Below are positions 5,576-28,228 of a stretch of 64,000 nt of DNA, piece by piece. A program made the position numbers and the translations under genes. The notes under the pieces were generated by a model. It saw only the letters and a program-made list of their open reading frames with translations. It was not told where the DNA came from and ran no database searches. The stretch's first letter is position 1. Every line of letters begins with the position of its first letter. The DNA is from a virus, in the IMG/VR virus record IMGVR_UViG_3300045988_090210; one strand, given 5' to 3'.

Positions 5576-6944
5576 ACCTTATGTTAAGTTCTCATCTAAT
5601 GCCTCTGTTGCGGTAGCTGGGTCATCTCATCTTGTGAGATTTCAGCAGTACGGGATTTTGTTAGATTGTGGGCTTTCTCAAGGCCATGATATAGCCACAG
5701 ACTACCAAAACAATAAAGATTTCCTCAAATCTGTTCGTGTGAAAGAAATCCAGTGGGTTATCCTCTCCCATCCCCATGCCGATCATAGCGCCCTTATTCC
5801 AGCTTTATTCGCTAAAGGTTCCCAAGCCCATGTTTTTGTGCCATTAGGGTCTAAGCCAATTTTGAGACTGCTATGGGAAGATAGCCTAAAAATCCATCAA
5901 TCTGACTGTATCAAGCTAAACAATAAGCATGGTAAAGGGTACAGCCCATTTTATACTGCTGATGATATTGAAACGGCATTGGATAGATGTATTGAGGTTG
6001 ATTATCATCAAAAGACCAACCTAACAAAAAACATTTGGTTTGAATACTATCCTGCTGGCCACATCTTATACTCCGCTCAAGTATATTTGTCTATGACACA
6101 AGGATATAAAGAATATAGAGTAGGGTTTAGTGGCGATGTAGGTGGTCAAATTGAGCGCCCCTATACAATCCCTTATGAGCCATTGCCCTTTGTAGATATG
6201 CTTATCCATGAGTGTACTTATTGTCAACCTACCAGACCAAATAGTGTGAAAGATAGGCCCAAGGACATTGAGAAGATTGAGGCTGTGGTTAGAGATAGCC
6301 ATAGAATCCTGTTCCCTTGTTTTTCTCTACAACGGACTCAAGAGCTGTTGACAGCGTTATATGAAATGTGGGAAGAGGGGTTGTTACCTGATATTCCTGT
6401 TTATCTTGATAGTCCATTGGCCATTAAGATTAGCAATATTTGGCCTGAGACTGAACAATGGCTAAGAGTAATGAAGTGGCCAAGACTCAAATTTATCAGT
6501 GAGACAACGGATAGTAAGGCGTTGCAGATGTCTAATGAGCATTGTATTATCATCGCTGCGTCAGGGTTTTTGTCCGGGGGGAGGATTTTAAGTCACCTAA
6601 CAACGGCTTTACCTAATCCTAATAATACTCTTATGTTCATTGGTTACAGTGGTGAGAACAACCTTGCGTTTAAGATTAAATCTGGTGAGCCATTTGTAGA
6701 GGTTAATGGTGTAGTGCTTGAGAACAAGGCTAAGATTGTTGAGTTAAGATCTTGGTCAAGCCATGCAAGCTATGAAGAACTAATGGATTACTTGACTACT
6801 CTACGGTATAATAAGGTATGTCTCGTGCATGGTGATATGGATGGTAAAGTGTCCTTTGCTAAGACACTTAAAGAAAAGTTGGTAGAGCAAGGCAAATCCA
6901 GCCGTGTTGTAGCTGTAAATCAAGACTCAAAACTATATATTTAA
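5556..6944 (+). CDS. metallo-beta-lactamase fold nuclease, beta-CASP family
   Basis: HxHxDH motif (SHPHADHSALIP). Later His/Asp motifs (AGHILYS, HECTY, SSHASYEEL, LVHGD) fit the beta-CASP layout. Confidence 0.75.
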   Translation: MGSGTAKPYVKFSSNASVAVAGSSHLVRFQQYGILLDCGLSQGHDIATDYQNNKDFLKSVRVKEIQWVILSHPHADHSALIPALFAKGSQAHVFVPLGSKPILRLLWEDSLKIHQSDCIKLNNKHGKGYSPFYTADDIETALDRCIEVDYHQKTNLTKNIWFEYYPAGHILYSAQVYLSMTQGYKEYRVGFSGDVGGQIERPYTIPYEPLPFVDMLIHECTYCQPTRPNSVKDRPKDIEKIEAVVRDSHRILFPCFSLQRTQELLTALYEMWEEGLLPDIPVYLDSPLAIKISNIWPETEQWLRVMKWPRLKFISETTDSKALQMSNEHCIIIAASGFLSGGRILSHLTTALPNPNNTLMFIGYSGENNLAFKIKSGEPFVEVNGVVLENKAKIVELRSWSSHASYEELMDYLTTLRYNKVCLVHGDMDGKVSFAKTLKEKLVEQGKSSRVVAVNQDSKLYI

Positions 6945-7749: not shown

Positions 7750-7923
7750 ATGTTTGAGGTTGTATTAACTGGATTGTTATTGGTTCTAGCCTTTGTTAAT
7801 CTGTGGACGGCTAAGACCGCTTATAAAGACAAGCGATATAGCTCTGCTTGTGTAGGTTGTTTTGTGAGTGGGATTTGTTTCTCCGGGGTTGTGTTTGATG
7901 TGTTACATTTGATTGGAGGGTAA
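7750..7923 (+). CDS. small membrane protein (57 aa, below the ORF-track cutoff)
   Basis: SD AAAGGAG lies 8 nt upstream of the ATG at 7750. Product is MFEVVLTGLLLVLAFVNLW...HLIGG*. Fills the gap between neighbouring genes. Confidence 0.4.
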   Translation: MFEVVLTGLLLVLAFVNLWTAKTAYKDKRYSSACVGCFVSGICFSGVVFDVLHLIGG

Positions 7924-7924
7924 T

Positions 7925-8200
7925 ATGGTATACGCAGATTACGCCTCTACTTGTCCTGTAGTTAAGTATCCTCAACAGCTATATCGTAATGTGTTGGGCG
8001 AAGGCTATTTCTTTAACCCCAACGCTAATTATGCTTACAAGGAAAAGCGCCTACTATCTGAAGCAGAAAACAGAGTAAAAAAGGCTATCGGGGCTAAAGA
8101 AGGCAAGGTTGTTTTTGGTGGAACAAGTAGTCAGTTGATTGAGAATTTGATGGCGGCTGTTATTTGTGAACAAATTATAAACAATAAAGAACCTACTTGA
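7925..8200 (+). CDS. cysteine desulfurase (NifS/IscS-like, class V aminotransferase), N-terminal fragment
   Basis: VYADYASTCP... and VVFGGTSSQLIENL match the IscS N-terminus (IYLDYSATTP, IVFTSGATESDNL). The ORF stops after ...NNKEPT. Confidence 0.7.
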   Translation: MVYADYASTCPVVKYPQQLYRNVLGEGYFFNPNANYAYKEKRLLSEAENRVKKAIGAKEGKVVFGGTSSQLIENLMAAVICEQIINNKEPT

Positions 8201-8225
8201 CTTTCGATTAAAATTATGGTATAAT
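8197..8225 (+). promoter_or_regulatory. sigma-A type promoter for the HNH endonuclease gene
   Basis: TTGACT (8197-8202), 17-nt spacer, TGgTATAAT (8217-8225). The -35 overlaps the stop codon of the desulfurase N-fragment. Confidence 0.65.
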
Positions 8226-8329
8226 ACAATAAAAGAGGTTAATAAGTAATGGCCATTGCTTATTATTTAAGGAAGGTGCTTATCTCACCTTCCTACTCTT
8301 AATATTATTCTTAGATAAGGAGAATGTAT

Positions 8330-8890
8330 ATGGAAGAGATTTGGAAAGATGTTGTTGAATATGAAGGGTTGTATCAAGTCAGTAATTTAGGAAGAGTTAA
8401 AAGCCTACAAAGAATAGATTCTAATAATCACATTGTAAAAGAGAAAATTAAAAAGTTAAGCACAGACAAAGATGGTTATAAATGTGTATTTCTATCTAAA
8501 GGAAATAAAAATATACAATATAAAGTTCACCGTCTTGTTGCTTTTGCGTTTATCCCTAATCCGGACAATCTCCCTCAGGTAGGGCACAAGGATGAGAGCA
8601 GAGATAATAATATAGTCACAAATTTAGAATGGACTAATTCTAAAGAAAATAATAATATGCCTTTAAGGATTGCAAGAAGCATACAATCTCATAAAGGCCA
8701 AAATAAATACGGAGACAACCCAAGAGCTATTAAAGTTGAATGCGATAATATTGTTTTTGATTGTATTAAACGTTGTGCTGAATACTACAAAGTAAACGAT
8801 AGAACAATGCAACAATGGTTATCAGGAATAAATCCAATGCCACAGTTTTTTCAAGAGAAAGGATTAAAGTATGCTTTGTATAGGGAGTAA
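8330..8890 (+). CDS. HNH homing endonuclease (I-HmuI-like, NUMOD4-type N-terminus)
   Basis: YEGLYQVSNLGRVKS, HRLVAFAF, VGHKDESRDNNIVTNLEWTNSKENN. SD AAGGAG. The 3' end overlaps the downstream desulfurase fragment by 20 nt. Confidence 0.8.
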   Translation: MEEIWKDVVEYEGLYQVSNLGRVKSLQRIDSNNHIVKEKIKKLSTDKDGYKCVFLSKGNKNIQYKVHRLVAFAFIPNPDNLPQVGHKDESRDNNIVTNLEWTNSKENNNMPLRIARSIQSHKGQNKYGDNPRAIKVECDNIVFDCIKRCAEYYKVNDRTMQQWLSGINPMPQFFQEKGLKYALYRE

Positions 8891-9704
8891 TTACGAACAT
8901 GATGCCATAGACCGATGGCTTGATATTCGTGTTTCAAATCTTGAAGAGCTTGAAAAGGCCCTTCAAGATAATCTTAATGATACCAAGTTTGTATTCTGGT
9001 TGGGTGTTTTAAACATTACAGGCGAAATTTTTCCTGTAAAAGATATTGGCCACCTATGCCATAAATATAACGCCTTCTATATTTGTGACGCAACGGCCCT
9101 TTTGGGTCATGCTGCTATCGAACCTAATATCGATGATTGGTGCGATTTTTTAGTTCTTGATGGTCACAAAGCCGGGACTGAACTTGGTATTGGTTGTTGT
9201 TGGGTATCAGATAGGTTAGACAAATGGCTCAATGGGTTCAAGTTACATGGCACACCTAATCTCGCTGGTGCATTAGCTATGACTCAAGCTGTTGAGGATG
9301 CTTGCGACAGCCGTAAGCTCAGCCAAAATAGCGCTCATTATGGGGAGCTGTTAGACTATTTGATTGATGGTTTGATTAAAAAGGATATTGATTTTCAACT
9401 TGTTCCCGAATATGAAGAAAATGAACCTCCCAATAAGTTCGTTTTAGCAATCAACGCCATTCGTCTGCCCGGAATTAATGCCGATTCCCTCCAACAGTAT
9501 CTTGCATCTCAACAAATTTATGTATCTATTGGCGGCTCTGCTTGCGCTGAGAAACATGATTATCGAGTGCTAAATGCTTATGGGCTGAATAATGATGAGG
9601 CCAGTGAGGTTATTAGAGTTAGTTTTGGTGAGGATAGTAGTATTGAGGATGTTAAGGCATTGGTTGAAGGAATTAAGGAATTTCAAGATACTTATGTAAA
9701 GTGA
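8871..9704 (+). CDS. cysteine desulfurase (NifS/IscS-like), C-terminal fragment
   Basis: LCIGSNYEHDAI (compare [11 protein letters not shown]). PLP-Lys motif LDGHKAG. Catalytic-Cys loop SIGGSACAEKH (compare SSGSACTS). Has its own ATG with AAAGGA 7 nt upstream. Confidence 0.75.
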   Translation: MLCIGSNYEHDAIDRWLDIRVSNLEELEKALQDNLNDTKFVFWLGVLNITGEIFPVKDIGHLCHKYNAFYICDATALLGHAAIEPNIDDWCDFLVLDGHKAGTELGIGCCWVSDRLDKWLNGFKLHGTPNLAGALAMTQAVEDACDSRKLSQNSAHYGELLDYLIDGLIKKDIDFQLVPEYEENEPPNKFVLAINAIRLPGINADSLQQYLASQQIYVSIGGSACAEKHDYRVLNAYGLNNDEASEVIRVSFGEDSSIEDVKALVEGIKEFQDTYVK

Positions 9705-21597: not shown

Positions 21598-21801
21598 ATG
21601 GTCACATTTTACTCAACTCATTGCCCCAAGTGTAACATTCTTGAAAAGAAACTTAAAGCAAGCAACATCGACTATACAGAAAATAATGACGTTAATATTA
21701 TGTTATCTAAGGGATTACGAACAGCGCCAGCACTTGAGGTTGATGGGGAAATTTATACATTTACTCAAGCAATTGAATGGTTAAAAAATCAGGAGGGGTA
21801 A
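21598..21801 (+). CDS. nrdH: glutaredoxin-like protein NrdH
   Basis: 67 aa. N-terminal beta-strand followed by CPKC redox motif (VTFYSTHCPKCNILEKKL). Immediately upstream of nrdD. Confidence 0.7.
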   Translation: MVTFYSTHCPKCNILEKKLKASNIDYTENNDVNIMLSKGLRTAPALEVDGEIYTFTQAIEWLKNQEG

Positions 21802-21804
21802 AGT

Positions 21805-22326
21805 TTGGATATTACACTTAAACTAAGTAAAGACTTTGAACGTTGTCTTGAGGATTTAAAGAAAAAGTACGGAGAAGATTTTGAATACATCAACGGCCTA
21901 CACCCAAATCAGCTTGATTTCTCCGAGTTTCTTGATAAGTTCGTTGCCGAAGATACCATGGCTGACGCAACTATTGACCCCAATGCCAACGCTCGCCACA
22001 AGGACATTCGTTCCTTTATGACTGAAAAAGGCAAGTCTGAAGATAAGTTGTTTGGTCTAAATAAAATTTTTACCGAAATCAAAAAACAATGGGGTCTAAG
22101 AACAGCAAAACAATGGCTTGAACAGGAGTTTAGTAAGGGCTTTTATCTAAACGATAGTGCAACAGCCAGTTATTTCCCATATTGTTGGGCAAATGATTTT
22201 ACTCGCCTCGCCACTGAAGGTTTGTTCTTTATCAATGAATACAATAACCAACCCCCTAAGCACCTTACTACTTATCTTGATGATGTTATTGAATTTGTGT
22301 CGTTTCTATCTAATCGGCAGTCGGGT
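21805..22326 (+). CDS. nrdD: anaerobic ribonucleoside-triphosphate reductase NrdD, exon 1
   Basis: TTG start after AGGAGGGG. The reading frame continues into exon 2 when 22326 is joined to 23461 (...SNRQSG|AVGMPN...). Confidence 0.85.
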
Positions 22327-23460
22327 GAACATTACTGCGCCCATTTGCTTCTTTTCTGCTAATCAGCGGGGTTACAATTATGTAGCTAACGGTGAAGGCT
22401 AAGTCTTAATGATATGCTAATACCGTGGGAATGTTTTATAAGGTAGTTTAATGAAAAAAGACATTTATGTAATAAAAAACAGAGTAAATAACATGGTTTA
22501 TGTGGGGCAAGCAATAAATTCTGCCGAAAGATTTATCGCTCATTGTAAGCCAAGTTCTGCAAAACAAGACAAATCCATTATTGATAAAGCCATTCAAAAA
22601 TACGGTGCCAATAATTTTTGGTTTGAAGTAATCGAACATCAGATTGAAGATTATAACGAACGAGAAAAATATTGGATAAAAAAACTGAATTCTTTAACAC
22701 CAAATGGATATAACATACAGGCAGGAGGCGAAAATCCGCCTGTATATCATGGGGTTGACCATTCGCTGTCCACATTTGATAACATAGAGACGGTTAATCT
22801 TATCAAGGACGATTTGAGGAATACTTGTTTGAGTTTGTCTGAAATAGCTAACAAGTATAATTCAAGTAAGAGAACAATAATGAGGATAAATCAAGGGTTA
22901 CATTATGAATCTATTGATGATGTTTACCCTATTAGAAAAGAACCCTTGCAAAATGGCAAGCTATCAAATGGACAAATAGAAGAAATCATAGAGATTCTAA
23001 AATACACATACAGGCAATATAATGATATTGCTCGTCAGTATGAGGTATCTCCGTCAACTATAAAACAGATAAATTCTGGTGTTGTCCATTTTGACTCCAA
23101 AGAATCTTATCCCATTAGAAAATACAAAAATAGTGGCAAACCAAACTGTACTTATGCCCAAGTTACAGAAATTATCGATTTGCTAACTACTACAGATATG
23201 TCTTGCAACCAAATTCATAAATGTTATAATGTCGATTTACAGACCATATATATGATAAAAAATGGTACTGCAAAAAGATATAAACGAGAAGGATATAAAT
23301 ATCCTCTCAGAAAAAACAACCCTATAAAATAAGCCTGTATCGACTATCCCAGTGAATGGGAGTACATTTGCTATTGATACGCAAATGGAAAGAGAAGCAC
23401 TACAAATTTAATTTTGTAGCAAAATATAGTCAGTCCTTATAGAAATATAAGATGTCTACG
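22327..23460 (+). mobile_element. group I intron in nrdD
   Basis: Exon GGGU| pairs with GCCC (22339-22342), giving a U.G wobble. TACTGC (22333-22338) is complementary to exon-2 GCAGTA. Terminal G at 23460. CGACTATC (23341-48) and ATATAGTC (23424-31) are P7-like strands. Confidence 0.8.
22451..23332 (+). CDS. GIY-YIG homing endonuclease (I-TevI-like), intron-encoded
   Basis: DIYVI...VYVGQ...R...EREKYWIKKLN...PNGYN. Three C-terminal HTH-like repeats end in YP(I/L)RK. Confidence 0.85.
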   Translation: MKKDIYVIKNRVNNMVYVGQAINSAERFIAHCKPSSAKQDKSIIDKAIQKYGANNFWFEVIEHQIEDYNEREKYWIKKLNSLTPNGYNIQAGGENPPVYHGVDHSLSTFDNIETVNLIKDDLRNTCLSLSEIANKYNSSKRTIMRINQGLHYESIDDVYPIRKEPLQNGKLSNGQIEEIIEILKYTYRQYNDIARQYEVSPSTIKQINSGVVHFDSKESYPIRKYKNSGKPNCTYAQVTEIIDLLTTTDMSCNQIHKCYNVDLQTIYMIKNGTAKRYKREGYKYPLRKNNPIK

Positions 23461-24861
23461 GCAGTAGGTATGCCCAATGTTCTAATTTGGGCTTATTATT
23501 TCTGGAAGCACGATATTGAGAATGGGTACTATTTGAAAGACCCTGACACTTATCTACGTCAGTGTTTCCAAAAACTAATTTATCGTCTAAACCAGCCCTT
23601 CCTACGCATTGACCAAGCTAGCTTTACAAACGTAAGCATTTTTGACCGGCCTTATCTTGAAAGCCTGTTTGGCGGCATGGAGTTTCCTGATGGCACTTTC
23701 GCCATTGACCAGATTGAGGAAATGCTTGAATGTCAAAAGGTGTTTATGGAGGTTGTGAGTGACATTCGTGAAGAACAGATGTTCACTTATCCTGTGTTAA
23801 CCTATTCTCTACTATATAAAGACGGTAAGTTCGTAGATGAGGACTTTGCTCGGTGGTGTAGCAATCACAATATTAAGTGGTCTGATAGTAATTTCTTCGT
23901 AAGTGACAATGTGGGCGTTTTGTCCAACTGTTGTCGTTTGCTCAGTGATACTAATAAGCTGGATGCTTTTATCAACTCTATTGGTGGCACAGCCCTATCT
24001 GTCGGTTCTTGCCGTGTAAGCACTATCAATCTTGTTCGTATTGCTTATGAGAGCAAGATGAATAAGAAGAAGTATTTAGACATTCTGCGAGACAGGGTGT
24101 TGCTGGACTGCAAGGCACTAACCTCTATGCGTCATATCCTAAAGCGCAACATCGAAAAGGGCCTACTACCCAACTATCAAGATGGTGCTGTTGAGCTTGA
24201 CAAGCAATTCTGTACCATTGGTGGTATTGGTATGTATGAGGTTATGGATTTGTTTAGCCTTATCAATACAGATGAGTTTGGTAACAAGTCTTATAGTGAT
24301 GAAGCTGTTGAGTTCGCCACTCAAATCCTTGACACCATGAACGATGTTAAAGACCATTTTGAGTGCGATTTTACCTTTAACATTGAGATGATTCCCGCTG
24401 AGAATTGTGCTGGTGTTATTTGCACTGCTGACAATCTACTATACGAGCAAAACAAGTATTTCATCTACTCTAACCAGTGGATCCCCCTTATGGAAAAGTG
24501 TACTATTCAAGAAAAGTGCCGTTTAGGTCATCTGTTTGATGCTAAATGTGGCGGTGGTTGTATTGCTCATATTGATATTGAGAACCGGTTCCCCAACGAA
24601 GAAGCCGCTTGGGATATGCTGAATTATGTGGCCAAACAGGGCGTAATTTACTTTGCTTTTACCACTAAGATTAACGTTTGTGAGGATAAACACGCTTTTA
24701 TTGGTACTAAAGAGTGCCCCCAGTGTGGCAAGCCTGTGGCCGACCAATATGCTCGTGTGGTAGGGTTCTATACCCCTGTTTCTGGTTATCAGCGCATCCG
24801 CAAGAGCGAGTTCAACCAGCGCAAATGGTATGATGTTCTAAACAAGGATGGGATTATGTAA
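23461..24861 (+). CDS. nrdD: anaerobic ribonucleoside-triphosphate reductase NrdD, exon 2
   Basis: C-terminal Zn site (CEDKH...CPQCG) and glycyl-radical motif ARVVGFYTPV. Typical class III core. Confidence 0.85.
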   Translation, partial: AVGMPNVLIWAYYFWKHDIENGYYLKDPDTYLRQCFQKLIYRLNQPFLRIDQASFTNVSIFDRPYLESLFGGMEFPDGTFAIDQIEEMLECQKVFMEVVSDIREEQMFTYPVLTYSLLYKDGKFVDEDFARWCSNHNIKWSDSNFFVSDNVGVLSNCCRLLSDTNKLDAFINSIGGTALSVGSCRVSTINLVRIAYESKMNKKKYLDILRDRVLLDCKALTSMRHILKRNIEKGLLPNYQDGAVELDKQFCTIGGIGMYEVMDLFSLINTDEFGNKSYSDEAVEFATQILDTMNDVKDHFECDFTFNIEMIPAENCAGVICTADNLLYEQNKYFIYSNQWIPLMEKCTIQEKCRLGHLFDAKCGGGCIAHIDIENRFPNEEAAWDMLNYVAKQGVIYFAFTTKINVCEDKHAFIGTKECPQCGKPVADQYARVVGFYTPVSGYQRIRKSEFNQRKWYDVLNKDGIM

Positions 24862-25355
24862 TGGCAGATACCATAGCACTAAGAGATGTGGTAGTTGAAG
24901 ATTTTTGTAATTATAAACTCCCCTCAATGTTCCTTATCTCATCTTACTGCGATTGGAAATGTTGCCATGAGGCCAATATTGATGAGTCCGTGTGTCAAAA
25001 TCACGGACTTGTCTCTGGCCCCATTAAACAAATTTCCTATGGAAGCCTGTATCAAGCATATATTAACAACGATATAACCAAAGCAATCGTTATTGGTGGT
25101 CTTGAACCCATACTTCAAATTAACGAAGTAGTTGGTCTTATACATTATTTTAGAAAAAAATCATGCCAAGACACGTTTGTAATCTATACTGGGTATTATC
25201 CCTCTGAGATACCTAAACCCCTTTCTGAGCTTAAAAAACTACACAATATTACTATCAAATATGGGCGTTATGACCCCAACCTCAAGGCCAGATATGATGA
25301 TGTGCTTGGAGTTATGTTGGTAAGTGAAAATCAATATGGGGAGGTTTTAAGTTGA
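24861..25355 (+). CDS. nrdG: NrdG-like radical-SAM activase (non-canonical Cys motif)
   Basis: Overlaps the nrdD stop by 1 nt. GGLEP matches the GGEP SAM motif. The cluster region is YCDWKCCHE (CX3CC), not CX3CX2C. Confidence 0.55.
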   Translation: MADTIALRDVVVEDFCNYKLPSMFLISSYCDWKCCHEANIDESVCQNHGLVSGPIKQISYGSLYQAYINNDITKAIVIGGLEPILQINEVVGLIHYFRKKSCQDTFVIYTGYYPSEIPKPLSELKKLHNITIKYGRYDPNLKARYDDVLGVMLVSENQYGEVLS

Positions 25356-25543
25356 CTAAAATTAAACTAACTGATGACATTGAACTCCGGCAAGAAATTA
25401 TCAAAAAGTTAAAAGAAAACCATGGTTTTTGCCCATGTGCCCTGACTAAAACACAGGACACTGTATGTATGTGCAAAGACTTCCGTGAAAATGTCCAATC
25501 TGGCCCGTGTCACTGTGGGCTATATGTAAAGGAGACAACATAA
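25352..25543 (+). CDS. ferredoxin:thioredoxin reductase catalytic-subunit-like protein
   Basis: 63 aa with CPC-x10-CMC-x10-CHCGLY spacing, as in FTR catalytic subunits (CPC...CPC...CHC). TTG start after GGGGAGG. Confidence 0.65.
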   Translation: MTKIKLTDDIELRQEIIKKLKENHGFCPCALTKTQDTVCMCKDFRENVQSGPCHCGLYVKETT

Positions 25544-25758
25544 TGATTAGTGAGATTACAGATATTGGCGTTTATCTTGGCCAATTCGGCAATGAGACCC
25601 GACTATGTGAACTACCCCCTGAGTCCGACATTATCCCTCAAAAGGGCGACTTTATCTTTTATGATAGTGAGCCTTACAAGGTAATGTATTGTATGGTTGA
25701 TGTAGACAATGGCGAATATTCTATCTTTGTTCGCAGAGCGATTGAGGAGGATTTTTGA
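25543..25758 (+). CDS. hypothetical protein ending in acidic tail ...AIEEDF
   Basis: The ATG at 25543 follows SD AAGGAG. The tracked upstream start lies inside the FTR-like gene. Confidence 0.45.
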   Translation: MISEITDIGVYLGQFGNETRLCELPPESDIIPQKGDFIFYDSEPYKVMYCMVDVDNGEYSIFVRRAIEEDF

Positions 25759-25955
25759 TGGTTGAACTTAGAAAATGGCCAACAGACACAGATTGGGCTT
25801 GGTGTAAAGAATGTTGCCTTAATACAGTAGGCAAGACCTCTACAACCCTACCAACAGAAGAATGGAAACGTAAGCTAATTGCAGCTGAACACAGCCCCCT
25901 AAGAGAGCTATGGTTTGGTATCAAAATGACCATTCCTTATTGGGTTTCCGTGCAT
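25755..25955 (+). CDS. thyX: ThyX-like (flavin-dependent thymidylate synthase family) protein, exon 1
   Basis: AAEHSPLRELWFGIKMTIPYWVSVH aligns by eye with ThyX [26 protein letters not shown]. Frame is restored by joining 25955 to 26977. Confidence 0.65.
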
Positions 25956-26091
25956 TAACATAAAAGTGCCCTTACACAGTAATGTGTATTGAAAACTCCG
26001 TTAACTTGTAATTGCAAGGTGTGAAGTTGACTTTATAAGGTCGGTAAGGAAATGTACCGTTTGCAACTTTGCTAACAGGGGAAATCTAAGG

Positions 26092-26120
26092 TTGACACTA
26101 TGACAATCCTGTGCTATAAT
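26092..26120 (+). promoter_or_regulatory. sigma-A type promoter inside the thyX intron
   Basis: TTGACA (26092-97), 17-nt spacer, TGcTATAAT (26112-20). About 27 nt upstream of the intron ORF. Confidence 0.6.
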
Positions 26121-26146
26121 TAGAATGTCCAGAAGATATAAAGGAG

Positions 26147-26851
26147 GTGAAAATTTTGAAAAAAATAGATATTATTGGCAATGTTTACTCTTCCAATCAT
26201 TATGGAGACTTCATTGTAGAAAAAGAATTGTACCCACAAGGAACAAATGTTTATTATCAAATCCGTTTCTTAAGTACAGGAACAACAACTAAAGCTGAAA
26301 AGCATAATATAAAGAAAGGCTCAGTAGCAGATTGTTACGCTAAAACAATTTATGGCGTTGCTTGTCGTGGGCGTGCATCTTCTAAATACCCTGTGTTAAA
26401 CAAAGTGGCTTTCAAACGTTGGTTGGCCATGTTGTCTCGTTGCTATAATAAAAACGATATTGGGTATAAGTCTTATGGTGCCAAGGGGTGTGTTGTTTCT
26501 GAAGATTGGCTTTGCTTTGAAAATTATGTGCGAGACATAATTAACATTAAAGGCTTCAACAAAGAAGAATATCTAAAGGGTATTATCCAGTTGGACAAGG
26601 ATGTTAAGATTCCTGATAACAAAGAATATTCTGTTGACAAATGTATTTTTCTAAATGCTTCAGCCAACAAGAAAAATCAACCTTCAAAGCAAAGATATTT
26701 TTATGCAATTTCGCCACAAGGCCAGCAATTTATATACAACAACGCCAATTTGTGTGCACAAGAACACGACTTAACCGCAAGAACCATCTTAAAATGCTTA
26801 AAAGGTCAATTCAAGCAACACAAAGGCTGGACATTCAAACTTGTAGTCTAA
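26147..26851 (+). CDS. intron-encoded endonuclease-like protein
   Basis: SD AAAGGAGG. YKSYGAKGCVVSEDWLCFENY segment. C-terminal module YFYAISPQGQQFIY...KGWTF resembles homing-endonuclease DNA-binding repeats. No catalytic motif firmly identified. Confidence 0.55.
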   Translation: MKILKKIDIIGNVYSSNHYGDFIVEKELYPQGTNVYYQIRFLSTGTTTKAEKHNIKKGSVADCYAKTIYGVACRGRASSKYPVLNKVAFKRWLAMLSRCYNKNDIGYKSYGAKGCVVSEDWLCFENYVRDIINIKGFNKEEYLKGIIQLDKDVKIPDNKEYSVDKCIFLNASANKKNQPSKQRYFYAISPQGQQFIYNNANLCAQEHDLTARTILKCLKGQFKQHKGWTFKLVV

Positions 26852-26976
26852 CGACTATCTCGAAAGAGAGTAGGGCGATTATGAAACGAATTGCTCGAAA
26901 AGCGGAGAACCCATATATATGGGTTGTGATATAGTCTACTCCCCTAATAAATATCGGGAAACCGAGGGTATAAAGG

Positions 26977-27315
26977 TTTGTTCGTCATCACATTGGATGC
27001 AATCATTATGTTCAGTCCCAACGCAATGACCGACAAAACAAGTATGACCGCAACAAGGCCTCACAAGACGAACTGGTAAGCCATATTATGTCCATCAACG
27101 CACAAGAGCTTGTGTTTATGGCTCATAAGCGTCTATGCAACCAAGCCTCTCCTGAGACTCGTGCTGTAATGCGAGAAATCGTAGATAAAGTTACTGAAAA
27201 ATGCCCTGAATTTAAGGGTTTTCTTGTCCCATTGTGCGAGTATAGAGGTGGGGTCTGCACAGAGTTTTACCCCTGCGGATATAATAAAACAATCAAGGAG
27301 AAAAACGATGCTTGA
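26977..27315 (+). CDS. thyX: ThyX-like protein, exon 2
   Basis: Begins FVRHHIGCNHYVQSQR (ThyX motif RHRxxxxxxxSxR, variant). NAQELVFMAHKRLCNQASPETR resembles [21 protein letters not shown]. Confidence 0.65.
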   Translation, partial: FVRHHIGCNHYVQSQRNDRQNKYDRNKASQDELVSHIMSINAQELVFMAHKRLCNQASPETRAVMREIVDKVTEKCPEFKGFLVPLCEYRGGVCTEFYPCGYNKTIKEKNDA

Positions 27316-28146: not shown

Positions 28147-28163
28147 CTAAACATCGAAAAAAA

Positions 28164-28203
28164 TAGGGAACTTAGACAGAGTAAAATCCATCTAAGTTCC
28201 CTA
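28164..28203 (-). terminator. terminator at the convergence point of both arms
   Basis: TAGGGAACTTAGA (28164-76) / TCTAAGTTCCCTA (28191-203), a 13-bp stem. On the minus strand it is followed by T7 (plus A-run 28157-63). Confidence 0.7.
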
Positions 28204-28228
28204 TAGTTATATATTAGATAGTTATATA

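What the first reader, a model, noticed from the sequence alone, without database searches (positions are those of the whole stretch)
21598..25543. Phage-encoded ferredoxin-type reductant chain for a class III RNR (NrdH-like, NrdD, NrdG-like, FTR-like)
Four contiguous, translationally coupled genes make up this cluster:
- a 67-aa glutaredoxin-like protein with a CPKC motif
- NrdD, with a glycyl-radical motif and a Zn site
- an NrdG-like radical-SAM protein
- a 63-aa protein with CPC-x10-CMC-x10-CHCGLY, the cysteine pattern of the ferredoxin:thioredoxin reductase catalytic subunit

Class III RNRs are classically regenerated by formate. A thiol route has been described for the Methanosarcina barkeri enzyme, in which an FTR-like ferredoxin disulfide reductase reduces an NrdH-like redoxin. 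This gene set suggests that the phage brings that whole route with it and draws on host ferredoxin. The cysteine desulfurase at 7.9-9.7 kb could support assembly of the Fe-S clusters.
Basis: partly seen in the sequence, partly recalled or inferred. Interest (0 to 1): 0.7.

Follow-up and report, generated by a model that had tools for sequence, protein, structure and literature searches.

The report
Gut phage ferredoxin-linked anaerobic RNR cassette
A gut phage carries, as one tightly packed gene block, an oxygen-sensitive enzyme that makes DNA building blocks, its activator, a small thiol protein and a tiny iron-sulfur-type reductase; together they would probably let the phage power DNA-precursor synthesis from the host's ferredoxin, and the same block recurs in most of the related viral contigs examined.

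Summary
Four translationally coupled + strand genes sit at 21598-25543:
- a 67-aa CPKC redoxin;
- NrdD, split by a 1134-nt intron that carries a GIY-YIG homing endonuclease;
- a divergent NrdG;
- a 63-aa protein with the six-Cys/His signature of the ferredoxin:thioredoxin reductase catalytic subunit. Spacing is CPC-x9-CMC-x11-CHC, not x10/x10.

The interpretation survives every in-silico test I could run.
- The spliced NrdD is a Thermotoga-type enzyme (NrdDh/NrdD2; E=1e-159). It has the bottom-face Tyr-Cys, the CC-R motif and the active-site Glu of thiol-dependent enzymes. It is neither formate-type nor the Methanosarcina NrdD3 subtype.
- The 63-aa protein passes Pfam FeThRed_B. Its model best matches the two solved ferredoxin:disulfide reductases.
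- 532 IMG/VR contigs encode a relative. In 62 of the 72 informative loci examined, redoxin, NrdD and NrdG precede it.
- All 74 linked NrdDs, from three clades, keep the thiol-type residues.
- Cellular relatives in gut Clostridia instead sit next to thioredoxin.

The genes themselves are not new. Clostridium phage c-st has carried the same set, so annotated, since 2005, and crAss001 gp5 is a relative. The pathway reading for phages was not found in the literature searched. No biochemistry exists.

The parts
21598..21801 (+). 67-aa glutaredoxin/thioredoxin-fold redoxin (C9-P-K-C12, cis-Pro P44); proposed direct reductant of NrdD
   Evidence: ORF. Pfam Glutaredoxin 19.2 bits (below cut-off) and TIGR02196 YruB-type 26 bits. 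PHROG 22 thioredoxin domain, E=2.8e-8. C9, C12 and P44 are 100% conserved in 74 relatives. Nearest PDB sequences are Grx 7c10 and MTH895 1ilo; NrdH only E=0.89. RBS AAAGGAGG 7 nt upstream.
21805..22326 (+). nrdD exon 1 (aa 1-174), TTG start; contains bottom-face Y126-C127
   Evidence: Junction fixed by intron-less homologues. Aligned to Tm Y124-C125.
22327..23460 (+). 1134-nt self-splicing-type (group I-like) intron in nrdD
   Evidence: Absent from the 99%-identical NrdD genes of L002/L003/L005, with an identical exon junction. The 5' exon ends in U and the intron ends in G. In-frame stop after exon 1. The endonuclease-less core of 252 nt folds with z about -3.4 against mononucleotide shuffles. 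No Rfam match.
22451..23332 (+). GIY-YIG homing endonuclease gene inside the intron (293 aa)
   Evidence: Pfam GIY-YIG 37.5 bits. TIGR01453 'group I intron endonuclease' 87 bits against a cut-off of 56. Homologues sit inside nrdD of L039 (same site) and L066 (different site).
23461..24861 (+). nrdD exon 2 (aa 175-640): N330-C331-C332-R333, I348, E483, Zn site C581/H585/C593/C596, glycyl-radical G609
   Evidence: Pfam NRDD E=3.4e-72. T. maritima NrdD 4coi/4u3e E=1e-159 for the spliced protein. These residues are 100% conserved in 74 FTR-linked NrdDs, except H585 (66 His, 8 Cys), the residue before the CC pair (N/M/S) and I348 (I/L/V).
24861..25355 (+). NrdG-like activase (164 aa) with non-canonical cluster motif C30-x3-C34-x10-C45
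   Evidence: Fer4_12 25.6 bits, TIGR02491 NrdG 20 bits (far below its cut-off), PHROG 626. Cys conservation 96%. The spacer varies from 2 to 10 residues among relatives. TAATG overlap with nrdD.
25352..25543 (+). 63-aa minimal ferredoxin:thioredoxin/disulfide-reductase-like protein (C27PC29-x9-C39MC41-x11-C53HC55)
   Evidence: Pfam FeThRed_B 26.2 bits against a cut-off of 22. Signature invariant. AF2 pLDDT 94.5. Foldseek: 4tpu FDR TMq 0.71 and 7pwe Grx/FDR fusion TMq 0.69. HMM search of PDB gives the same two. BFVD 'Ferredoxin thioredoxin reductase' TM 0.91. TTGA overlap with nrdG.
25543..25758 (+). 71-aa ORF translationally coupled to ftr (TAATG); probably not part of the module
   Evidence: Sequence. 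Found only in the four closest viral contigs. No Pfam or PHROG match for the overlapping longer ORF.

Best explanation
The block is a self-contained, thiol-dependent class III ribonucleotide reductase module of a roughly 81-kb phage from gut-type metagenomes.

**Proposed mechanism**
1. After the nrdD intron is spliced out, NrdG (a radical-SAM activase with an expanded Cys loop) installs the glycyl radical on G609 of NrdD.
2. Each turnover oxidises an active-site cysteine pair: C127 with C331 of the CC-R motif.
3. The 67-aa CPKC redoxin re-reduces that disulfide.
4. The 63-aa protein re-reduces the redoxin. It would act as a minimal ferredoxin:disulfide reductase, with a [4Fe-4S] cluster on four of its six cysteines and a redox-active disulfide on the other two, C29 and C55 by analogy with FTR.
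5. The 63-aa protein takes its electrons from reduced host ferredoxin.

**What is shown**
- Gene content, coupling and the splice junction.
- The thiol-type NrdD residues.
- The FTR/FDR signature and predicted fold.
- Conserved linkage of the four genes.

**What is inferred**
- Cluster binding.
- The direction and partners of electron transfer.
- Use of host ferredoxin.
For: **1. NrdD subtype**
- The spliced NrdD matches T. maritima NrdD at E=1e-159.
- It keeps Y126-C127, the C331-C332-R333 motif and E483. The Glu column is Leu in P. copri NrdD, which belongs to a different NrdD group.
- NrdD2 is defined by a third Cys plus a Glu, and its reductant is a thioredoxin-type protein (PMC4493059; PMC9176816 table; PMC4390871).
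- TmNrdD was inactive with formate and needed a protein larger than 10 kDa.

**2. The 63-aa protein**
- FeThRed_B above the curated cut-off.
- Six Cys plus His invariant or nearly so in 17-19 homologues.
- Confident model whose only meaningful PDB matches are two ferredoxin:disulfide reductases. One is naturally fused to a glutaredoxin.

**3. Linkage**
- 532 IMG/VR contigs encode a relative.
- Among the best 80 loci, 72 have at least 3 kb upstream. Of these, 69 have the redoxin, 71 NrdD, 65 this NrdG type, and 62 all three in the same order.
- Flanking genes are not conserved: the RecD-like gene occurs in 11 loci and orf71 in 4.

**4. NrdD residues across linked loci**
- All 74 distinct linked NrdDs have YC, CC-R, N-x-E and the radical Gly at 100%.
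- They fall into NCCR, SCCR and MCCR groups and go down to 24% identity.

**5. A second FTR-like lineage**
- Among crAss001 gp5-type relatives, 12 of the 22 more divergent loci sit just downstream of an SCCR-type NrdD.

**6. Cellular relatives**
- In gut/rumen Clostridia MAGs without nrdD, a canonical WCGPC thioredoxin lies about 200 nt downstream in 17 of 36 loci. This fits a reductase-redoxin pair.

**7. Precedent**
- Ferredoxin to FDR to NrdH-like to M. barkeri NrdD (Wei et al. 2015, cited in PMC9176816; the paper was not readable here).
Against: - No biochemical data exist for any of these phage proteins.
- The 63-aa protein covers only positions 32-89 of the 106-position Pfam model. It has CMC where FTR has CPC. 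Its Foldseek E-values are weak (0.06-0.12) because the domain is tiny.
- No ferredoxin or flavodoxin signature occurs in the 64-kb window, so the electron source is assumed.
- Close crAss001-type relatives sit in a tRNA array with no RNR within 6 kb, so the protein can work without a linked NrdD.
- The redoxin could equally be reduced by a host thioredoxin reductase.
- In the T. maritima crystal structure the CC-R motif lies far from the active site, and its catalytic role is debated (PMC4493059).
- That Tm E495 is the diagnostic NrdD2 Glu is my own alignment-based assignment. I could not read it in the papers available.
Confidence: 0.6

Rival explanations
1. The redoxin and FTR-like pair serves activation or repair rather than turnover. 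It would keep the Zn-site or other NrdD cysteines reduced so that NrdG can install the glycyl radical, or it would feed the electron NrdG needs for SAM cleavage. Turnover electrons would come from a host system.
For: - Thioredoxin has a documented activating role for E. coli class III RNR (Padovani 2001, as cited in PMC4390871).
- ftr overlaps nrdG (TTGA) and immediately follows it in most loci.
- NrdG needs a low-potential one-electron donor (established knowledge of radical-SAM activases).
Against: - FTR-type clusters do two-electron disulfide chemistry and are not simple one-electron carriers (established knowledge of FTR).
- All linked NrdDs carry the full thiol-turnover signature.
- Cellular relatives pair with thioredoxin, not with radical-SAM genes.
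- In c-st the FTR-like gene follows nrdD, not nrdG.
Confidence: 0.15
2. The 63-aa protein is a general auxiliary metabolic gene. It would couple host ferredoxin to host thioredoxins or other disulfides, remodelling thiol redox state during infection. Its position next to nrdD would reflect a shared nucleotide-metabolism early operon rather than a dedicated chain.
For: - crAss001 gp5 and its close relatives stand alone in a tRNA array with no RNR nearby. The crAss001 authors listed it as an auxiliary metabolic gene.
- Cellular relatives pair with ordinary thioredoxin.
- A dUTPase gene lies in the same locus, usually downstream of the cassette, in 54 viral loci.
Against: - Linkage with the redoxin and a thiol-type NrdD holds in 62 of 72 loci across three NrdD clades, while other flanking genes change.
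- Linkage recurs in a second FTR-like lineage.
- FTR-like matches were found in only 41 phage records (Bacteroides, Clostridium and uncultured phages). None was from the Salmonella, Escherichia, Aeromonas or Enterococcus phages that make up most of the 514 records with an NrdD match.
Confidence: 0.15
3. The 63-aa protein is not a reductase. It would be a small Zn- or Fe-binding structural or regulatory protein that merely retains the FTR cysteine pattern. The CPKC redoxin would be reduced by a host thioredoxin reductase.
For: - It is about 40% shorter than the Pfam FTR catalytic-subunit model (63 aa against 106 positions).
- The second motif is CMC, not CPC.
- The Pfam score is only 4 bits above the cut-off.
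- PHROG 38239 is labelled 'unknown function'.
Against: - All six Cys, the catalytic-type His, and the flanking K42, F44 and R45 are invariant or nearly so.
- The fold matches bona fide FDRs over the whole chain (TMq about 0.7).
- The family has 1396 clusters at E<=1e-3 and a consistent redoxin neighbour.
Confidence: 0.08

Closest known systems
Methanosarcina barkeri class III RNR system (ferredoxin to FDR to NrdH-like to NrdD3; Wei et al. 2015, Biochemistry 54:7019, cited in PMC9176816)
   Same: The same logic: a [4Fe-4S] FTR-family ferredoxin:disulfide reductase reduces a small glutaredoxin-like redoxin, which in turn reduces a class III RNR.
   Different: - NrdD here has the Glu, so it is NrdD2/NrdDh (T. 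maritima-like), not NrdD3.
- The reductase is a 63-aa single domain, and its gene is translationally coupled to nrdG in the RNR block.
- The M. acetivorans FDR structure (4tpu) is 169-173 aa, is labelled 'Rubredoxin' in the sequence file, and has CYC instead of CHC.
- This module is phage-borne.
Thermotoga maritima NrdD / Neisseria bacilliformis NrdD (NrdD2, NrdDh subclass; PDB 4coi, 4u3e)
   Same: - Closest solved homologue (E=1e-159).
- Shares Y-C, the CC-R motif, Ile at the finger-loop tip, Glu, a Cys3His Zn site and the glycyl-radical loop.
- Protein reductant rather than formate.
   Different: - The motif is NCCR, not SCCR.
- It lacks the 13-residue insert that T. maritima NrdD has after the CC-R motif.
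- The N. bacilliformis enzyme uses thioredoxin/TrxR/NADPH. Here a ferredoxin-type reductase is encoded alongside.
Clostridium phage c-st / D-1873 cluster CST074-CST077
   Same: The same four functions in one block: glutaredoxin, NrdG, NrdD and a 63-aa protein annotated 'weakly similar to ferredoxin-thioredoxin reductase catalytic chain'. That protein is 47% identical to the one here. A dUTPase gene follows.
   Different: - Gene order is grx-nrdG-nrdD-ftr.
- Its NrdG is a different type (CX5CX2C, no tblastn match).
- Its NrdD is interrupted by a putative intein rather than an intron (PMC3653736).
- NrdD is only 42% identical.
Plant/cyanobacterial ferredoxin:thioredoxin reductase catalytic subunit (Pfam PF02943)
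   Same: Three Cys-x-Cys motifs, including CHC. The Pfam match is above the cut-off.
   Different: - Covers only the core (model positions 32-89 of 106).
- Spacing is x9/x11.
- The second motif is CMC, not CPC.
- No variable subunit was looked for or seen.
- Canonical FTR chains were not retrieved by HMM or fold search of the PDB.
Desulfotalea psychrophila glutaredoxin/FDR fusion protein (PDB 7pwe)
   Same: The FDR domain matches the model (TMq 0.69, 31% identity). It is physically fused to a glutaredoxin, the same pairing as the two separate phage genes.
   Different: It is a single 193-196-aa fusion protein from a sulfate reducer. No link to an RNR is known to me.
Bacteroides phage crAss001 gp5 'putative ferredoxin-thioredoxin reductase'
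   Same: A 65-aa relative (44% identity) that is already annotated.
   Different: - It stands alone in a tRNA array with no RNR within 6 kb.
- It was described as an auxiliary metabolic gene unrelated to replication.
- More divergent members of that lineage are NrdD-linked.

Membership tests
FTR catalytic subunit / ferredoxin:disulfide reductase family (Pfam PF02943 FeThRed_B) | Profile match above the curated gathering score | tested here: met
   26.2 bits against a cut-off of 22, E=8.6e-6, residues 13-62 on model positions 32-89 of 106. No NCBIfam match.
FTR catalytic subunit / ferredoxin:disulfide reductase family (Pfam PF02943 FeThRed_B) | Three Cys-x-Cys motifs (four cluster ligands plus a redox-active pair) with His in the last one | tested here: met
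   C27PC29, C39MC41, C53HC55. C27, P28, C39, C41, C53, H54 and C55 are invariant in 19 sequences. C29 is invariant in the 17-sequence set and missing from one sequence of the 19-sequence set. All six Cys align with those of M. acetivorans FDR 4tpu. The second motif has Met, not Pro.
FTR catalytic subunit / ferredoxin:disulfide reductase family (Pfam PF02943 FeThRed_B) | Fold of a solved FTR/FDR | tested here: met
   AF2 pLDDT 94.5. Foldseek top two: 4tpu (TMq 0.71, prob 0.99) and 7pwe (TMq 0.69, prob 0.99). All other matches have TMq of 0.34 or less. E-values are weak (0.06, 0.12).
FTR catalytic subunit / ferredoxin:disulfide reductase family (Pfam PF02943 FeThRed_B) | [4Fe-4S] cluster and ferredoxin-dependent disulfide reductase activity | not testable with these tools
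   Needs purified protein, spectroscopy and assays.
FTR catalytic subunit / ferredoxin:disulfide reductase family (Pfam PF02943 FeThRed_B) | Heterodimer with an FTR variable subunit (canonical plant/cyanobacterial FTR only) | not tested
   I did not search the window for a variable-subunit homologue. None is among the cassette genes.
Thiol-dependent class III RNR (NrdD2 of Wei et al.; NrdDh of RNRdb) | NrdD fold with a C-terminal glycyl-radical motif and Zn site | tested here: met
   Pfam NRDD E=3.4e-72. Tm NrdD E=1e-159. RVVGFY with G609. C581/H585/C593/C596.
Thiol-dependent class III RNR (NrdD2 of Wei et al.; NrdDh of RNRdb) | Third cysteine next to the thiyl cysteine: (S/M)CCR motif, unique to NrdDh | tested here: met
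   N330-C331-C332-R333 aligned to Tm S328-C329-C330-R331. CC-R is 100% conserved in 74 linked NrdDs. The preceding residue is N in 61, M in 7 and S in 6. Definition from PMC4493059.
Thiol-dependent class III RNR (NrdD2 of Wei et al.; NrdDh of RNRdb) | Active-site Glu (present in NrdD2; absent in NrdD1 and NrdD3) | tested here: met
   E483 aligns with Tm E495 in the motif F-N-I-E-x-x-P-A-E and is 100% conserved. The same column is Leu in P. copri NrdD. That this column is the diagnostic Glu is my inference; the primary paper was not readable.
Thiol-dependent class III RNR (NrdD2 of Wei et al.; NrdDh of RNRdb) | Tyr before the bottom-face Cys (completely conserved in NrdDh) | tested here: met
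   Y126-C127 aligns with Tm Y124-C125 and is 100% conserved in 74 sequences.
Thiol-dependent class III RNR (NrdD2 of Wei et al.; NrdDh of RNRdb) | Activity with a redoxin and not with formate | not testable with these tools
   Known only for relatives: N. bacilliformis with thioredoxin, and T. maritima with an extract protein larger than 10 kDa.
M. barkeri-type NrdD3 | Third Cys present but no active-site Glu | tested here: not met
   E483 is present and invariant. The definition is from PMC4493059. The protein is therefore not filed as NrdD3, although the proposed electron chain works like that system.
NrdH-redoxin (TIGR02194) | Family profile above the cut-off | tested here: not met
   16.2 bits against a cut-off of 85.75. 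PDB NrdH 1r7h only E=0.89.
NrdH-redoxin (TIGR02194) | NrdH hallmark motifs C(V/M)QC and WSGFRP (from my own knowledge of the family) | tested here: not met
   Read directly from the sequence: the active site is CPKC, and there is no WSGFRP-like motif.
Thioredoxin-fold CxxC redoxin (generic) | N-terminal CxxC plus a conserved cis-Pro | tested here: met
   C9 and C12 100%, P10 95%, P44 100% in 74 relatives. PHROG 22 thioredoxin domain.
NrdG (class III RNR activase, radical SAM) | Family profile above the cut-off | tested here: not met
   TIGR02491 20.3 bits against a cut-off of 126.1. Only Fer4_12 (25.6 against 22) and PHROG 626 match.
NrdG (class III RNR activase, radical SAM) | CX3CX2C cluster motif | tested here: not met
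   The conserved triad is C30-x3-C34-x10-C45 (96% each). The spacer varies from 2 to 10 among relatives; L042 has the canonical CX3CX2C. I read this as an expanded loop rather than a lost motif.
NrdG (class III RNR activase, radical SAM) | Encoded next to, and coupled with, nrdD | tested here: met
   TAATG overlap. Present in 65 of 72 loci.
Group I intron with homing endonuclease | Precise insertion relative to intron-less alleles; U before the 5' splice site; G at the intron's 3' end; intron-type endonuclease ORF | tested here: met
   (junction). TIGR01453 87 bits against a cut-off of 56.
Group I intron with homing endonuclease | Match to the Rfam group I intron model | tested here: not met
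   No match at the gathering score or at E<=10. The 882-nt ORF inside the intron may defeat the model. Intron class is therefore inferred, not shown.

The most novel reading that the evidence does not exclude
A 60-70-aa single-domain protein would be the smallest working ferredoxin:disulfide reductase. Together with a 67-aa redoxin, it would form a portable module that supplies the physiological electrons for NrdDh (CC-R motif) class III RNRs. Phages of gut anaerobes would then wire dNTP synthesis directly to the host's low-potential ferredoxin pool, independently of NADPH/thioredoxin reductase and of formate. That would also point to the still unidentified natural reductant of the Thermotoga-type enzymes.
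Probability: 0.5. Interest if true: 0.7.

Novelty: new variant of a known kind. Interest (0 to 1): 0.55.

Why it matters
**Why the reductant question is open**
- Class III RNRs are textbook formate-dependent enzymes.
- Thiol-dependent subtypes were recognised only in 2014-2015.
- The natural reductant of the Thermotoga-type (NrdDh) enzymes has not been identified. T. maritima NrdD needs an unidentified protein from cell extract.

**What this cassette offers**
- A candidate complete chain, encoded in cis, for that subclass.
- A very small, easily expressed reductase (63 aa) and redoxin (67 aa), so the question becomes directly testable in vitro.
- A possible role for a phage protein family that PHROGs lists as 'unknown function' and that the crAss001 paper treated as unrelated to replication.
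- If true, a new way for phages to draw on host ferredoxin to make DNA precursors in anoxic habitats such as the gut.

Tried and rejected
- **Near-identical DNA in the phage collection:** none.
- **Rfam on the whole window and on the intron at E<=10:** no group I intron or other family match. Intron class rests on boundaries, the endonuclease type and intron-less alleles.
- **Primary papers:** Wei et al. 2014 (PMC4246965) and 2015 (PMC4697749) are not held. Subtype definitions were taken from PMC4493059, PMC4390871 and PMC9176816.
- **Literature linking a phage FTR-like protein to NrdD:** none in the held library. No paper was found for the D. psychrophila Grx/FDR structure.
- **Redoxin-FTR fusions among longer relatives (110-270 aa):** none found. 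The extensions are HTH domains or have no family match.
- **Phage-encoded ferredoxin:** no CX2CX2CX3C motif in any reading frame of the window.
- **Promoter/terminator scan of 21.2-28.4 kb:** counts no higher than in shuffles. Operon limits are therefore not defined by it.
- **M. barkeri NrdD3 membership:** rejected, because the Glu is present.
- **True NrdH membership:** rejected, on profile score and motifs.
- **The 71-aa ORF coupled downstream:** rejected as a module member, since only the four closest relatives have it.
- **NrdD-linked copies in bacterial genome contigs as native chromosomal operons:** the two loci inspected look like prophage or phage DNA, with DNA polymerase, dNMP kinase, dUTPase and a serine integrase.

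Full report
**1. What is in the sequence**

Between 21598 and 25543, all on the + strand, lie a 67-aa ORF, two NrdD ORFs separated by a GIY-YIG endonuclease ORF, a 164-aa ORF and a 63-aa ORF.

Family matches:
- The two NrdD pieces match Pfam NRDD (E=2e-7 and 3e-72).
- The middle ORF matches GIY-YIG, and TIGR01453 'group I intron endonuclease' at 87 bits.
- The 164-aa ORF matches Fer4_12 at 25.6 bits.
- The 63-aa ORF matches FeThRed_B at 26.2 bits against a cut-off of 22.
- The 67-aa protein has only sub-threshold glutaredoxin/thioredoxin matches, but matches PHROG 22 (thioredoxin domain).
- The 63-aa protein matches PHROG 38239, labelled 'unknown function'.

The junctions confirm translational coupling:
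- Each start has a Shine-Dalgarno sequence.
- nrdD starts (TTG) 3 nt after the redoxin's stop codon.
- nrdD/nrdG overlap as TAATG, nrdG/ftr as TTGA, and ftr and a further 71-aa ORF as TAATG.

**2. The split NrdD**

- Exon 1 ends at 22326 (...CAG TCG GGT). The intron runs 22327-23460. Exon 2 starts at 23461 (GCA GTA GGT...).
- The spliced 640-aa protein is colinear with, and 99% identical to, the uninterrupted NrdDs of the closest viral contigs (L002, L005).
- The DNA on either side of the junction matches their continuous sequence.
- The 5' exon ends in U and the intron ends in G.
- Without the endonuclease ORF, the intron is 252 nt and folds better than shuffles (z about -3.4).
- Rfam finds nothing, so 'group I' is an inference.
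- Homologous endonuclease genes sit in nrdD of other contigs, at the same site (L039) and at a different site (L066).

**3. Which kind of NrdD**

- The spliced protein matches T. maritima NrdD (4coi, 4u3e) at E=1e-159 over its whole length.
- Next best is P. copri NrdD, at E=4e-5.
- NrdDh, the subclass of T. maritima and N. bacilliformis, is marked by an (S/M)CCR motif and a Tyr before the universally conserved bottom-face Cys. [quoted passage not shown]
- The phage enzyme has Y126-C127, N330-C331-C332-R333, Ile348 at the position of the Tm finger-loop Ile359, and E483 aligned with Tm E495.
- That Glu column is Leu in P. copri NrdD.
- T. maritima NrdD was inactive with formate and needed a protein larger than 10 kDa from extract. 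N. bacilliformis NrdD uses thioredoxin.

The phage NrdD is therefore of the thiol-dependent type. It is not the M. barkeri NrdD3 subtype.

**4. The 63-aa protein**

- Nineteen close metagenomic homologues keep the six Cys, P28, H54, K42, F44, R45 and G51. One sequence lacks C29.
- An exhaustive profile search finds 1396 clusters at E<=1e-3, mostly 60-90 aa long.
- The AlphaFold model is confident (pLDDT 94.5).
- Its only meaningful PDB matches are the M. acetivorans ferredoxin-dependent disulfide reductase (4tpu, TMq 0.71) and the D. psychrophila glutaredoxin/FDR fusion protein (7pwe, TMq 0.69).
- A profile search of PDB sequences returns the same two, with all six cysteines aligned.
- Among predicted viral structures, the best match is a 69-aa 'Ferredoxin thioredoxin reductase' of an uncultured siphovirus (TM 0.91).
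- The protein is a stripped-down core: Pfam model positions 32-89 of 106, with Met instead of Pro in the second motif.

**5. Linkage**

*Viral contigs.*
- A scan of IMG/VR finds 532 viral contigs that encode a relative.
- In the best 80, 72 have at least 3 kb upstream. Of these, 69 carry the redoxin, 71 an NrdD, 65 this NrdG type, and 62 all three, in the order redoxin-nrdD-nrdG-ftr.
- The surroundings are not conserved: the upstream RecD-like helicase recurs in 11 loci and the downstream 71-aa ORF in 4.
- The 74 distinct linked NrdDs fall into three groups (NCCR 61, MCCR 7, SCCR 6). Identity goes down to 24%. All keep Y-C, CC-R, N-x-E, PAE and the radical Gly.

*A second lineage.*
- I seeded a second scan with crAss001 gp5.
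- Its close relatives (77% identity or more) have no RNR within 6 kb.
- Of the 22 more divergent loci, 12 lie just downstream of an SCCR-type NrdD. In two of these a thioredoxin-like gene lies between.

*Bacterial genome contigs.*
- At least 589 encode a relative, mostly gut and rumen Clostridia MAGs.
- Those most like the phage protein carry the same cassette: 21 of 65 informative loci have all three partners.
- The two cassette loci I inspected have phage-like flanks.
- Of 36 loci without nrdD that I analysed, 17 have a canonical WCGPC thioredoxin about 200 nt downstream on the same strand.

The family therefore keeps a redoxin partner, and in phages that partnership is tied to thiol-type NrdD.

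**6. The other two proteins**

- The redoxin keeps C9, C12 and a cis-Pro-type P44 in all relatives.
- It resembles small Grx and MTH895-type proteins more than NrdH.
- The activase is divergent. Its conserved cysteines are C30-x3-C34-x10-C45.
- The second spacer varies from 2 to 10 residues among relatives. One relative has the canonical CX3CX2C.
- I read this as an expanded radical-SAM loop.

**7. Mechanism proposed**

Reduced host ferredoxin gives electrons to the 63-aa [4Fe-4S]/disulfide protein, then to the CPKC redoxin, then to the C127/C331 pair of NrdD, then to NTP reduction. NrdG installs the glycyl radical.

- Shown: gene content, coupling, splice junction, residue signatures, predicted fold and linkage.
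- Inferred: cluster binding, partners, direction of electron flow and the electron source. No ferredoxin motif occurs in the window.
- Rivals: a role in activation rather than turnover (thioredoxin activates E. coli NrdD); a general thiol-redox auxiliary function (crAss001 context); or a non-catalytic metal-binding protein.

**8. Comparison with what is known, and novelty**

- The pathway logic is that of the M. barkeri system (Wei et al. 2015, cited), but with an NrdD2/NrdDh enzyme, a far smaller reductase and a phage carrier.
- The genes are not new. Clostridium phage c-st has glutaredoxin, NrdG, NrdD and a 63-aa 'weakly similar to FTR' protein side by side. crAss001 gp5 is annotated as an FTR.
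- The c-st and D-1873 NrdDs were already placed in NrdDh1.
- In the held literature I found no paper that connects the phage FTR-like protein with the RNR.
- The crAss001 paper calls it unrelated to replication.
- I rate this a new variant of a known kind: plausible, widespread and directly testable, but without experimental support.

**9. Context**

- The window belongs to a roughly 81-kb phage seen in several public metagenome assemblies whose record names suggest human gut studies.
- It encodes DnaE-type polymerase, DnaB-like helicase, RecJ-like and RecD-like proteins and a DNA methylase. It has no tRNA genes.
- Downstream of the cassette lie a thyX-like gene and a dUTPase gene.
- The 'cysteine desulfurase' at 7.9-9.7 kb is a class-V aminotransferase gene split by an HNH endonuclease gene.
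- It keeps GHK and GSAC motifs (read from the sequence). Nothing links it to the RNR block.

Noticed in passing
window 25755-27315: A thyX-like (Pfam Thy1) gene is split. The N-terminal piece is 25755-25958 and the C-terminal piece 27088-27315, with an I-HmuI-like HNH endonuclease ORF (26147-26851) between them. A perfect 12/12 sigma-70 consensus with a TG extension lies at 26092-26120, just upstream of the endonuclease. The same gene is uninterrupted (178 aa) in L005, L164 and L166.
   Followed up: partly
window 7913-9704: The 'cysteine desulfurase' is a class-V aminotransferase gene in two pieces: 7913-8200, and 8871-9704 (Aminotran_5 model positions 128-371 of 371). An HNH endonuclease ORF (8324-8890) separates them. 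It is probably a third endonuclease-bearing insertion in this phage. It keeps GHK and GSAC motifs. No link to the RNR block was found.
   Followed up: partly
window 24861-25355 and NrdG genes of L002-L162: The NrdG-like activases of this family have C-x3-C-x(2-10)-C instead of a fixed CX3CX2C; here it is C30-x3-C34-x10-C45. The loop between the second and third cysteine varies in length between relatives.
   Followed up: partly
L110-L162 (bacterial genome contigs), around position 6001-6500: In gut and rumen Clostridia MAGs, a 63-66-aa FTR-like gene without nrdD is followed about 200 nt downstream by a canonical WCGPC thioredoxin in 17 of 36 loci. In 5 loci a pyruvate:ferredoxin-oxidoreductase-like ORF (by its sequence; not scanned against families) lies about 5 kb upstream. 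This may be a cellular mini ferredoxin:thioredoxin system.
   Followed up: partly
L082 (crAss001) 2271-2468; L168-L229: crAss001 gp5 (FTR-like) sits inside an array of 23 tRNA genes with no RNR nearby. More divergent members of the same lineage lie directly downstream of an SCCR-type nrdD, which suggests the linkage was lost in crAss001-like phages.
   Followed up: partly
L039 3064-3915; L066 2765-3625: Close homologues of the intron's GIY-YIG endonuclease (E=7e-83 and 1e-78) interrupt nrdD in other viral contigs. In L039 the site is the same (about aa 174-181). In L066 it is a different site (aa 226).
   Followed up: no
L001 (Clostridium phage c-st) 3485-6421: c-st nrdD is annotated as one 2937-nt CDS with an in-frame insertion of about 1 kb. 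The literature calls it a putative intein. Its NrdG (CX5CX2C) is unrelated to the one here, and the gene order differs.
   Followed up: no
BFVD entry A0A8S5RYM0 (Myoviridae sp. ctNQV2): A 232-aa phage protein named dihydrofolate reductase contains a domain matching the FTR-like model (TMq 0.69, 39% identity). This may be a fusion with another nucleotide-metabolism enzyme.
   Followed up: no
window 25543-25758: A 71-aa ORF is translationally coupled to the FTR-like gene (TAATG overlap). It has no family match and occurs only in the four closest viral contigs.
   Followed up: partly
window about 28000: GC skew changes sign and gene orientation switches from + to - near 28 kb. A strong bidirectional-looking terminator hairpin (18 pairs) lies at 28163-28204 on the - strand.
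   Followed up: no
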